From the UHGV virus genome UHGV-0380155: a stretch of 18,497 nt of DNA; one strand, written 5' to 3'. The DNA is from a virus. Made by a program: the position numbers. Within the stretch, counting starts at the first letter, position 1; the number at the start of each line of letters is the position of its first letter. Below, one piece after another: positions 15,001 to 18,000 of this stretch.

Positions 15001-18000
15001 CTGCCGCTTTTCCCGGCGTATTCCCTGTACATCAGTCTGCATCAGGCGAAGCCGCATTTTGGCAATATCCTGGGATATCAGCGAAATGCATGAAAACACC
15101 GCGTGAAAGGACAAAACGGTTTCCGGATCGGCTTTCACACCCTGCTGCCAGGCACCGGCAAAAGGCTCAGCCACCGCCTGAAACAGGGACCGCCAGCCCA
15201 CTTCTCTTACGTCACGTCCTGATTTCTGGTTTTTTCGGGTTCGCCGCAAAAGGTTCCACATTCGCCATGCTCCGCATCACGTTTCTTTTTCTGACCTGCC
15301 GGACGTCGCGCTGTGATGTACTCCGCCTTCCCCAGGCGAACCAGCACCTCCGCACACGGCTGTGCCACATCACGGATATCCCCGGCCCGGGCATCATGCG
15401 TGCCCTGCAGATACTGGATTTTTGCCATCTGTTACTGCGGGAAGCTCGCGCCTCCCGCCCTCCTCATCAGACTCAGCCACCGGACGCAGTTCCGTAGTTC
15501 ACACCGGTGATCACCGCCACTGCCGCGGTACGGCGACGACGCCAGTTGATCCAGCGCTCCGCACGGATGGCCACGCTGCCGGTCTGAAACATGGAGACCA
15601 GTTCCACCGGTGACGGTGTGCTGCTGTCGCCGCCCGGCTCAGACTGCATTTCCAGTGACGCTTCACGGGACATATCCACTGCCACACCGCCGTCATCCGC
15701 CAGATAAATATCCGGCGCATTCACCAGTACCAGCTGGTCACCCACATACTGGGAGACAATCACCGGCAGCCCCTGGAAGGTCCCGCCCAGCAGGGTCATG
15801 TCCGGATATTCCTTCTGCCCCAGCGCATTTTTACGCATGGACAGCGCCAGGGCATTCGTGCTGGACATCAGCCAGACCGCACCGGTGGGCTGCAGATTTG
15901 CCGTCACAAACTGGCCAAACGCGGCCTCGGCATCCGCATCCGGGTTACCGGTTGATGCCGTGCCCTTCACATCATGGGTGATGGACGCCGGGGAGACATC
16001 CGCCACCGCCGCTTTTTTCGGGTCCACAAAGTCTGTGTCCAGACGCGCCACCACCGCTTCTGCCAGCGCATTACGGACCAGCGCATCAGCTGCCGGACTG
16101 GAAAAACGGATCAGCTCTTCCGTCAGTACCGCAATGGCCGACACCTTCGCATGACTGAAGGTGATGGATTCAAAATCAAACTTCGTCAGGGGTCTGGCCT
16201 TACCCTCCCCCACCCAGCCGGCAGCACCACCGGACACCTGGGCATGCACGCGGATATTGAACGGCACCTGACGAAGTGCAGGGATCCCGCCCTGACCAAA
16301 TCGCCCGATAATGGTCTGCGGACGCAGGTAATCAATAAAGTCCTGCGCATATTCCTGGTATTCAGACAGGCTGCCTGCCCACTGCGGGTCCGTGGTGGTC
16401 CCTGCCCCCACCGCCGATTTCAGGACATGATGCAGACGACTGTCATCCGGATACTGACGACGGGCCACTTCCAGGGCTTCAGATCGGACGCCTTTAGCCG
16501 CAGCCAGCGATTTGGCAAAGCGGGCGAAGCCAATCCCCTTATCCAGTTTCTGCTCCACACGGATCACCGGCGCAGAAGCCACCGCGGCCACATTCCCGTT
16601 ACCGGCCTGTTTCACCGGCTGCGCCGTGGCGGCCTTACCGGCTTCCAGTTCACGCAGGCGCTTCAGGTGCGCATCCACCTGACGGATTTCCGCTGCGGTG
16701 TTGTCGTAATGCTCTTCCTCCTCCACATCCAGCGTGCGCCCTTCCTCTGCGGCTTTGGTCATGACCTCCTCAAGGGAGGCTGCCAGCGCTGCACGCTTGT
16801 TTTCAAAACTTTTAATCTGTTCGCCAATATTCATTATGGTCTTTTCCTTATGAAAAACGGTTGTTGACTGTGCCGCAGCGCCGGCAGAAGATGCGATTTT
16901 CACCACCGGTTTCCGGTTGCCGGACGCGGCAGAAAACGGGCGGTCGTAAGATTTAATGGCCCGGATGGTGCATTCCGCATTCGCGGGCACGGTGACGGCA
17001 GACACCTCCATCAGCTCCCAGCGCAGAAAATGCAGTCCGCCTCCGTCCAGAAAGGTGTATTCATGGGGACGGAAGCCCACGGACAGCCCCCTGACCAGCC
17101 CGGTCTTAATGGCCGCCCAGACCTCATCCAGCCGGGCAGCCAGTTGCGACGGCATATCCGGTACGGGCTTCACCAGTGTTGCCGTGATTTCCAGCCCTTC
17201 GCTGACCCGGCGCACCGTACACTGCCCCACCGGGCGGGAATGGTCATGCTGCCAGAGAAACGGGATCGCACTGCCAAACTCCGCGCCCTCCGGCTCCAGG
17301 ATGTCACCATCCCGATCCGGAGAAGGCGTTGACGCAATCCCGGTGATCACCCGTTCATCCTCACTGAAGGATTTCACCGTCAGCAGGGAACAGGCCCGTT
17401 TAAGAGTCACATCAGCCTCCTGAAAATAAAAAAACCGCCGGAGCGGTTCGTGATGGTTACAGTGTGAACAGGGTTATATGAAAAAAACCGCATATTCTTT
17501 CTTTTTCGGTTCCGGGTTAAGGGACATCAGGGAGACCGCATTGAACAGCGCCATCAGCGGGTCAATTTTTCCCCGTCCACTGACCTGTTTGGTGATAAGA
17601 ATGGCGTTACCTTTAGGCTCCACCCGGGCATTGCCGACACACCAGGCCATCAGGGGCTGGTCACCATGCACCAGCACCCCTTCAGCCAGTTTGCGCTCGG
17701 TGGTTTTAATGGCCCCGCCCAGTTTCCAGCCCTGGCTTATCCCCACCACAATTCCGTCGGGGATCCCGGCTTCCGCCAGTGAATCCAGAATCTGCCCCAC
17801 CCCTGACGGGTCAATACCGATATGGTCCAGTAACTCAGCCTCATGAATGCGACGCACATATTCCGCCACTTCAGCCGTGTCATCCCCGACACGCCGGACA
17901 ATGGTCATATCTCCACAGGCAACAAGATCCTGAAACCGGGACGCCTCGCTCTTCCGTCGGACCACCGCGGTTTCATGCGCCCAGGCATGGCCCCAGCCCA

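What the first reader, a model, noticed from the sequence alone, without database searches (positions are those of the whole stretch)
15473..17410. Single ORF encoding prohead protease fused to major capsid protein
The S78-type protease domain (first ~180 aa) runs without a stop into a capsid protein that begins at an internal Met (MNIGEQIKSF...). Either the capsid is made as a protease fusion and processed, or it is initiated internally.
Basis: partly seen in the sequence, partly recalled or inferred. Interest (0 to 1): 0.45.

Follow-up and report, generated by a model that had tools for sequence, protein, structure and literature searches.

The report
Prohead protease–capsid fusion gene, nested start
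This is a real and already catalogued phage head gene in which the capsid-maturation protease is fused in frame to the major capsid protein, and comparison with relatives shows a conserved ribosome-binding site and start codon at the joint, so the gene probably makes both the fusion and a free capsid protein.

Summary
A 645-codon ORF on the minus strand (17410 to 15473) encodes an HK97-type prohead protease (aa 1-156), a disordered linker (157-192), and then an HK97-type major capsid protein with its helical scaffold ("delta") domain, which starts at Met193.

It is not a sequencing error. The same ORF is present in 1,252 of 5,426 complete E. coli genomes, in Stx phages 1717, 2851 and BP-4795, and as a 615-700 aa fusion in well over 100 protein clusters from many bacterial phyla. 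Pseudomonas phage PAJU2 has carried the annotation "prohead protease fused capsid protein" since 2009. The fusion itself is therefore already known.

What I add is comparative. All 64 fused loci examined carry an ATG, GTG or TTG at the joint. A Shine-Dalgarno motif lies 5-10 nt upstream in 87.5% of them, against 18% for other in-frame start-like codons. Lysine codon choice at the joint always creates AAGG. The surrounding mRNA is unusually unstructured. Relatives with separate genes start the capsid gene at exactly this codon.

Most likely reading (about 0.7): nested in-frame genes, as in lambda C/Nu3 or herpesvirus UL26/UL26.5, giving a 69-kDa protease-capsid fusion plus a 48-kDa capsid precursor. 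No protein or ribosome data were available.

The prophage in this window is defective because its terminase is deleted.

The parts
15473..17410 (-). Full-length ORF, 645 aa, 69.0 kDa: prohead protease - linker - delta (scaffold) domain - major capsid protein
   Evidence: (phrog_617 matched end to end, E=1.5e-260)
17408..17421 (-). Start of the long form: AGGAGG (17421-17416), 5-nt spacer, GTG (17410-17408). Relatives have ATG at the same aligned position.
16943..17410 (-). HK97-type prohead serine protease domain (aa 1-156). His55 (17248-17246), Ser110 (17083-17081), Glu135 (17008-17006) and Ser137 are invariant in 49 diverse homologues.
   Evidence: aa 1-141 fold with pLDDT about 56-83; dN/dS 0.07-0.14
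16835..16942 (-). Variable linker (aa 157-192), predicted to be disordered. It corresponds to the C-terminal tail of the protease in relatives where the two genes are separate.
   Evidence: pLDDT <50 across 142-193; dN/dS 0.3-1.1 but lower dS
16832..16850 (-). Candidate internal translation start: TAAGGA (16850-16845), 10-nt spacer, ATG (16834-16832) = Met193
   Evidence: duplex dG -6.2 kcal/mol; identical in 69 of 80 E. coli copies; the other 11 did not match the search string; local mRNA structure z = +3.3
15473..16834 (-). Predicted short product: 453-aa, 48.2-kDa capsid precursor (delta domain plus capsid protein), equivalent to the stand-alone capsid genes of relatives
16628..16828 (-). 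Two long helices (aa 195-222 and 229-261), the scaffold-like delta domain at the N-terminus of the capsid precursor
   Evidence: pLDDT about 71-76; profile positions 197-262 match the N-terminus of a solved major head protein, 9gyi
15506..16255 (-). HK97-fold capsid core (Pfam Phage_capsid, aa 386-635)
   Evidence: profile hits to solved capsid proteins 9d9w, 8gta, 5tjt

Best explanation
The ORF is the genuine head-assembly gene of a widespread HK97-like module with the gene order terS-terL-[protease-capsid]-small ORF-portal. This module occurs in Pankowvirus-type Stx phages and in Pseudomonas phage PAJU2.

I propose that it works as a pair of nested in-frame genes:
- Ribosomes starting at GTG 17410 make a 69-kDa protease-linker-delta-capsid polyprotein.
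- Ribosomes starting at the internal SD plus ATG 16834 make a 48-kDa delta-capsid precursor.
- Both co-assemble through the shared capsid and delta part, so the protease is carried into the prohead by a covalent tether.
- After assembly, the protease cuts off itself and the delta domains, leaving the mature capsid protein.

Shown here: the fusion, its domains, its conservation, and a selected start-site signature at the joint. Inferred: actual use of the internal start, co-assembly, the ratio of the two products, and the cleavage sites. In this particular window the prophage is defective, so the gene cannot yield virions on its own.
For: Domains and conservation:
- Domain hits.
- H55, S110 and E135 are invariant.
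- Purifying selection acts on both halves.
- The fusion is present in 1,252 of 5,426 E. coli genomes.
- About 144 of the best 150 cluster representatives at 50% identity are fusions.

Start-site signature at the joint:
- All 64 fused loci, taken from many phyla, have a start codon 4-11 codons before the conserved Glu197: ATG in 61, GTG in 2, and TTG or GTG in 1.
- 124 of 150 fused sequences compared (144 cluster representatives, the query and 5 close homologues) have Met within 6 aa of Glu197. About 10 others have Val or Leu there.
- SD/anti-SD duplex energy is <= -5 kcal/mol at 87.5% of joints, against 18% of 2,157 other in-frame start-like codons (Mann-Whitney p = 2e-27).
- At the joint, Lys is AAA before Gly in 20 of 20 cases and AAG before Glu in 13 of 13. 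Both choices create AAGG. There is no such association elsewhere in the same ORFs (Fisher p = 1.7e-9 against 0.62).
- The 60-nt window around the joint start is less structured than other windows in 98% of loci (mean z = +2.15), and its GC content is 0.48 against 0.62.

Relatives with separate genes:
- They start the capsid gene at exactly this codon with the same SD. Examples are caaTAAggattcc...ATG in Burkholderia phage vB_FUB47a and overlapping ATGA in L143.
- Fused and separate states interleave on the capsid tree, with at least 10 changes.

Experimentally studied relative: PAJU2, for which the authors proposed a fused and autocatalytically cleaved capsid, has CAGGAGGGCAACGAC-ATG at its joint.
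Against: - No ribosome-profiling, proteomic or N-terminal sequence data for either product could be found.
- The loci are related by descent, so the p-values overstate independence.
- The long-form start also has a strong SD (AGGAGG), so nothing in the sequence shows that the short form is the more abundant one.
- The spacing in this E. coli copy (10 nt from GGA to ATG) is at the long end of the usable range.
- Low GC and Lys/Gly/Glu richness could partly reflect the needs of a flexible linker.
- The published proposal for PAJU2, as cited in PMC8306868, mentions only autocatalytic cleavage.
Confidence: 0.7

Rival explanations
1. Polyprotein only. Every capsid subunit is made as the 69-kDa fusion, giving a 1:1 ratio of protease to capsid, and is trimmed by autoproteolysis. 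The internal ATG and SD are not used for initiation.
For: There is no stop codon between the domains. The long-form start has a strong SD. For the homologous PAJU2 protein the authors proposed autocatalytic cleavage of a fused protein (citing Uchiyama 2009).
Against: This does not explain why a start codon, an SD, an SD-creating codon choice and unstructured mRNA are all kept at the joint through saturating synonymous divergence. It also does not explain why lineages switch freely between fused and separate genes.
Confidence: 0.22
2. The start-site signals at the joint are relics of recent, repeated fusions of formerly separate genes, kept by chance rather than by selection.
For: Fused and separate states changed at least 10 times on the tree. 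In-frame relatives differ from fusions only by a stop codon. The window's TAAGGA resembles the stop-plus-SD (TAAGGA) found in relatives with separate genes.
Against: Whole deep clades are fused. In the Enterobacterales clade dS exceeds 1, yet all 12 loci keep AAAGGA or CAAGGA, or ACAGGA in L094, followed by N8-11 and ATG. The Lys codon bias is 33 of 33.
Confidence: 0.06
3. The fusion is an artefact: a sequencing or assembly error, or a pseudogene produced by loss of a stop codon in this defective prophage.
For: The prophage in this window is defective.
Against: The same full-length ORF occurs in 1,252 complete E. coli genomes, in sequenced Stx phage genomes, and in many genera at 38-77% identity. 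dN/dS is about 0.1 in both halves.
Confidence: 0.01

Closest known systems
Pseudomonas phage PAJU2 ORF003 (BAG74987; UniProt P85500, 'capsid polyprotein'; note 'prohead protease fused capsid protein')
   Same: Homologous full-length fusion of 667 aa. Same gene order: terminase, fusion, small ORFs, portal. Same joint motif (M-K-T-x-A-E-Q-I) with an SD-like AGGAGGG 6 nt before the ATG.
   Different: Moderately diverged: the phage-collection search with the window protein found nothing at 60-90% identity apart from a single record in the 60-80% band, and PAJU2 was not among the listed hits; it was reached with the L118 homologue, to which it is 54% identical. Different host. The published interpretation, as cited in PMC8306868, is autocatalytic cleavage only and does not mention internal initiation.
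Stx phages of genus Pankowvirus (1717, 2851, BP-4795, YYZ-2008, JLK-2012)
   Same: 95-99% identical gene, already annotated as 'putative major head protein/prohead protease' or 'phage head maturation protease'.
   Different: Those are complete phages with intact terS and terL. In the window these genes are deleted.
HK97 gp4 (protease) and gp5 (capsid protein with delta domain)
   Same: Same protease and capsid families by profile search. The scaffold function is carried by an N-terminal helical domain of the capsid protein (HK97 biology from PMC10275583).
   Different: In HK97 these are two separate genes placed after the portal gene. Here there is one ORF placed before the portal gene.
Nested in-frame protease/scaffold genes: lambda C/Nu3 (Shaw & Murialdo 1980, listed in the references of PMC8508860) and herpesvirus UL26/UL26.5 (PMC11565193)
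   Same: A long product with an N-terminal protease, plus a shorter and more abundant product made from an internal in-frame start that shares the C-terminal assembly part. The tether delivers the protease into the procapsid.
   Different: In those systems the shared part is a separate scaffolding protein. Here it would be the capsid protein itself, with its built-in scaffold domain. The lambda protease belongs to a different family (my own knowledge). Two products have not been demonstrated here.
[quoted passage not shown]
   Same: The same idea: protease, scaffold and capsid protein in one ORF. It is recognised as a standard annotation.
   Different: A different sequence subfamily: the window protein scores 54 bits against NF045541, whose cut-off is 525. 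I did not examine the joints of those genes.

Membership tests
HK97-family prohead serine protease (Pfam PF04586 Peptidase_S78 / TIGR01543) | Profile match above the curated threshold | tested here: met
   PF04586 scores 34.7 bits against a gathering score of 21. The stricter equivalog TIGR01543 scores 48.1, below its cut-off of 59. The protein is therefore a family member, but not at equivalog level.
HK97-family prohead serine protease (Pfam PF04586 Peptidase_S78 / TIGR01543) | Conserved catalytic His and Ser | tested here: met
   H55, S110, E135 and S137 are invariant in 49 homologues at 36-78% identity. Assigning them as the catalytic residues is by homology and was not tested.
HK97-family prohead serine protease (Pfam PF04586 Peptidase_S78 / TIGR01543) | Proteolytic activity on the capsid precursor | not testable with these tools
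   Needs biochemistry.
HK97-family major capsid protein (PF05065 / TIGR01554) | Profile match above the curated threshold | tested here: met
   PF05065 scores 55 bits against 24.2. TIGR01554 scores 80 bits against 27.5. A family profile hits solved capsid proteins 9d9w (E=4e-17), 8gta and 5tjt.
HK97-family major capsid protein (PF05065 / TIGR01554) | HK97 fold of the capsid core | tested here: inconclusive
   The AlphaFold model of the capsid part has pLDDT below 50 because the alignment was shallow, so no fold search was run.
HK97-family major capsid protein (PF05065 / TIGR01554) | N-terminal helical delta (scaffold) domain removed at maturation | tested here: inconclusive
   Helices at 195-222 and 229-261 are predicted with pLDDT of about 71-76. 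Their removal and the cleavage site were not testable.
Protease-capsid fusion ('capsid polyprotein', PAJU2 type; PHROG 617) | Single ORF with N-terminal protease and C-terminal capsid protein, homologous end to end to known fusions | tested here: met
   phrog_617 is matched at residues 1-639 against profile positions 7-626 of 626, E=1.5e-260. The Stx phage copies of this gene align end to end with L118, the homologue that is 54% identical to the PAJU2 fusion over its whole length.
NCBIfam NF045541 prohead protease/major capsid protein fusion | Score at or above the curated cut-off (525 bits) | tested here: not met
   54.3 bits, over aa 48-287 only. Same architecture, different subfamily.
Nested in-frame protease/assembly-protein gene pair (lambda C/Nu3, herpesvirus UL26/UL26.5) | Internal in-frame initiation signal inside the protease-containing ORF | tested here: met
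   A conserved start codon, SD, codon bias and open mRNA are present at the joint. This is sequence evidence only.
Nested in-frame protease/assembly-protein gene pair (lambda C/Nu3, herpesvirus UL26/UL26.5) | Two protein products observed, with the short one in excess | not testable with these tools
   No proteomic or ribosome-profiling data were found.

The most novel reading that the evidence does not exclude
Across this very large family of protease-capsid fusion genes, the fusion is not a simple polyprotein. It is a two-product nested gene in which a selected internal ribosome-binding site makes free capsid precursor, while the long form tethers a minority of protease inside the shell. This would be an HK97-type counterpart of lambda C/Nu3 and herpesvirus UL26/UL26.5. 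I could not find it stated in the searchable literature.
Probability: 0.4. Interest if true: 0.45.

Novelty: already known. Interest (0 to 1): 0.3.

Why it matters
The gene builds the heads of a common class of Shiga-toxin-converting phages and of many prophages, so knowing how it is expressed matters for understanding how these phages assemble.

If the internal start is used, genome annotation misses one real product: the capsid precursor itself. The ratio of tethered protease to capsid subunits would then be set at the level of translation. That would be a clean third example, in a third structural context, of a strategy shared by lambda and herpesviruses.

The fusion as such is ordinary and already annotated.

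Tried and rejected
- Sequencing error or pseudogene: rejected by population and cross-genus conservation.
- Genes on the opposite strand under the ORF (297, 155 and 123 aa): no family matches.
- Known RNA families in 15000-18497: none.
- The IMG/VR scan with the single protein returned only copies >=96% identical. These were useless for comparative tests, apart from showing that the joint is invariant in E. coli.
- AlphaFold with the allowed shallow alignment gave mean pLDDT 44.6. Only the protease domain and the delta helices were usable, so no fold search was run.
- Literature: Liu & Mushegian 2004, Duda & Teschke 2019 and Oh et al. 2014 are not held. The original PAJU2 paper could not be read. 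The papers on BiPBO1, the Antarctic Pseudomonas prophages and the Euscelidius phages gave no N-terminal or size data for this protein. No paper proposing internal initiation in such fusions was found.
- I did not test whether the actinobacteriophage fusions carry the same joint signature.

Full report
**Observation**

The window has a 645-codon ORF at 15473..17410 on the minus strand.
- It starts at GTG 17410-17408, 5 nt after AGGAGG, and ends at TGA 15475-15473.
- Pfam finds Peptidase_S78 at aa 48-152 and Phage_capsid at aa 386-635, both above their gathering scores.
- NCBIfam finds TIGR01554 (HK97 major capsid protein) at aa 204-584.
- PHROG 617, a full-length fusion family labelled "major head protein", is matched end to end with E=1.5e-260.
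- The opposite strand carries only unsupported ORFs, and there is no Rfam match.

**Context**

The window is the late region of an E. coli lambdoid prophage of the type found in Stx phages 1717, 2851 and BP-4795 (genus Pankowvirus).
- Its gene order is terS, terL, protease-capsid, a small ORF, portal, connector and then tail genes.
- The copy in the window is defective. Homology with the phages stops at about 18025.
- The ORF 17474..18343 joins the N-terminal 106 aa of a lysozyme to the last 184 aa of TerL.

**The fusion is real and old**

- The gene is full length and >=95% identical in 1,252 of 5,426 complete E. coli genomes.
- It is 73-77% identical at 644-648 aa in Salmonella, Enterobacter, Klebsiella, Serratia and Kosakonia.
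- In a library clustered at 50% identity, 12,685 proteins match. About 144 of the best 150 are fusions of 615-700 aa at 38-54% identity. Ranking by full-length score favours fusions, so this share is biased upward.
- His55, Ser110, Glu135 and Ser137 are invariant in 49 diverse members.
- Against enterobacterial relatives, dN/dS is 0.07-0.14 for the protease part and 0.06-0.12 for the capsid part, with dS above 1.
- The sequencing-error reading is refuted.

**It is already known**

- BP-4795, YYZ-2008 and JLK-2012 annotate the gene as "putative major head protein/prohead protease".
- The PAJU2 homologue is annotated "prohead protease fused capsid protein".
- A later paper cites the PAJU2 authors (Uchiyama et al. 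2009) as proposing autocatalytic cleavage of a fused protein. It also cites the UniProt entry P85500, "capsid polyprotein" (PMC8306868).
- NCBIfam holds a model for such fusions, NF045541. The window protein does not reach its cut-off.

**The joint**

I collected 80 diverse loci from one genome per species and checked the reading frames.
- 63 loci are single fused ORFs.
- 4 loci have an in-frame stop at the joint.
- 9 loci have the two genes in different frames.
- In every case the break falls between query residues about 156 and 197.
- Burkholderia phage vB_FUB47a has the same gene order but separate genes, and its capsid protein aligns from Met193.
- Stand-alone capsid proteins in the cluster library also begin at query positions 193-196.

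In all 64 fused loci, including the window, there is a start codon 4-11 codons before the conserved Glu197. It is ATG in 61, GTG in 2, and TTG or GTG in 1. An AGGA, GGAG or GAGG motif lies 5-10 nt upstream.

Four signatures support selection on this site:
- The SD/anti-SD duplex energy is <= -5 kcal/mol for 87.5% of joints. For 2,157 other in-frame ATG, GTG or TTG codons in the same ORFs it is 18% (p = 2e-27).
- At the joint, Lys before Gly is always AAA (20 of 20) and Lys before Glu is always AAG (13 of 13). Both produce AAGG. Elsewhere in the same ORFs there is no association, and Lys-Gly prefers AAG.
- The 60-nt window around the joint start is less structured than other windows in 98% of loci (mean z = +2.15). 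Its GC content is 0.48 against 0.62.
- In 150 fused sequences compared at the protein level (144 cluster representatives, the query and 5 close homologues), 124 have Met within 6 residues of Glu197. About ten of the rest have Val or Leu there, the pattern expected of ATG/GTG/TTG.

The linker is free to vary in amino acids (dN/dS 0.3-1.1), yet it has lower dS than its flanks. In the window the motif is TAAGGA, 10 nt, ATG, with a duplex energy of -6.2 kcal/mol. It is identical in all 69 E. coli copies where the search string matched. PAJU2 has CAGGAGGGCAACGAC-ATG.

**Evolution**

- On a rough neighbour-joining tree of the capsid part, separate-gene loci are scattered among fused ones, with at least 10 state changes.
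- Their junctions range from 60-110 nt gaps, through overlapping ATGA or GTGA, to an in-frame TAA that is itself part of TAAGGA.
- Such easy switching is what one expects if the capsid precursor is always translated from its own start, and the only variable is whether the protease stays tethered.

**Mechanism proposed**

- The long product is 69.0 kDa and the short product is 48.2 kDa.
- The protease domain (aa 1-141) and two long helices (195-222 and 229-261) fold with moderate confidence. Residues 142-193 are predicted to be disordered.
- By analogy with HK97, where the scaffold is the N-terminal domain of the capsid protein (PMC10275583), I infer that both products co-assemble and the protease is carried inside by its tether. 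The analogy extends to lambda C/Nu3 and to herpesvirus UL26/UL26.5, where a protease-scaffold fusion is made at about one tenth the level of the free scaffold (PMC11565193).
- The protease would then remove itself and the delta domains.
- Use of the internal start, the ratio of products and the cleavage sites are all inferences.
- The sequence gives no sign that the short form is the more abundant, because the long-form start also has a strong SD.

**Verdict**

The fusion is already known and annotated. The added value is comparative evidence that the joint is a selected translation start. Interest is modest.

Noticed in passing
window 17474-18343 (-), breakpoint near 18025/18026: This ORF fuses the N-terminal ~106 aa of a phage lysozyme to the C-terminal 184 aa of the large terminase. 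A deletion has removed Rz, the KilA-N gene, the HNH gene, terS and most of terL, so this prophage is defective.
   Followed up: yes
window ~13915 (-), portal ORF 13897-15261 and next ORF 12839-13900: The portal gene is split by a homopolymer. The window has a run of 5 G, then a stop, and the next ORF begins at an overlapping ATGA. Phage 2851 has 6 G and a single 859-aa portal ORF. Among E. coli copies with identical flanks, 21 have G6 and 8 have G5. RefSeq calls an O157 copy 'frameshifted'. This could be decay, a homopolymer sequencing error, or slippage.
   Followed up: partly
window 17422-17449 (-): A terminator-like hairpin followed by a T-run (GAACCGCTCCGGCGGTTTTTTTATTTT) sits between the terL stop and the SD of the protease-capsid gene. 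A similar hairpin is found at the same place in Enterobacterales, Morganella, Pseudomonas and other loci. Its function is unknown.
   Followed up: partly
window 15207-15428 (-): A small 73-aa ORF (phrog_829, unknown function, no Pfam match) lies between the capsid and portal genes and overlaps the portal start. PAJU2 and Burkholderia phage vB_FUB47a have small ORFs at the same position.
   Followed up: no
window 13305-13709: Internal direct repeats lie in the C-terminal portal-extension ORF. They align in several registers with phages 1717 and 2851 and explain length differences of this ORF between phages (353 versus 407 aa).
   Followed up: no
window 13897-17473 (-) compared with HK97-like phages: The gene order is unusual. 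The protease-capsid gene comes directly after terL and BEFORE the portal gene. This order is shared by PAJU2 and the Burkholderia phage, whereas HK97 has portal, protease, capsid.
   Followed up: partly
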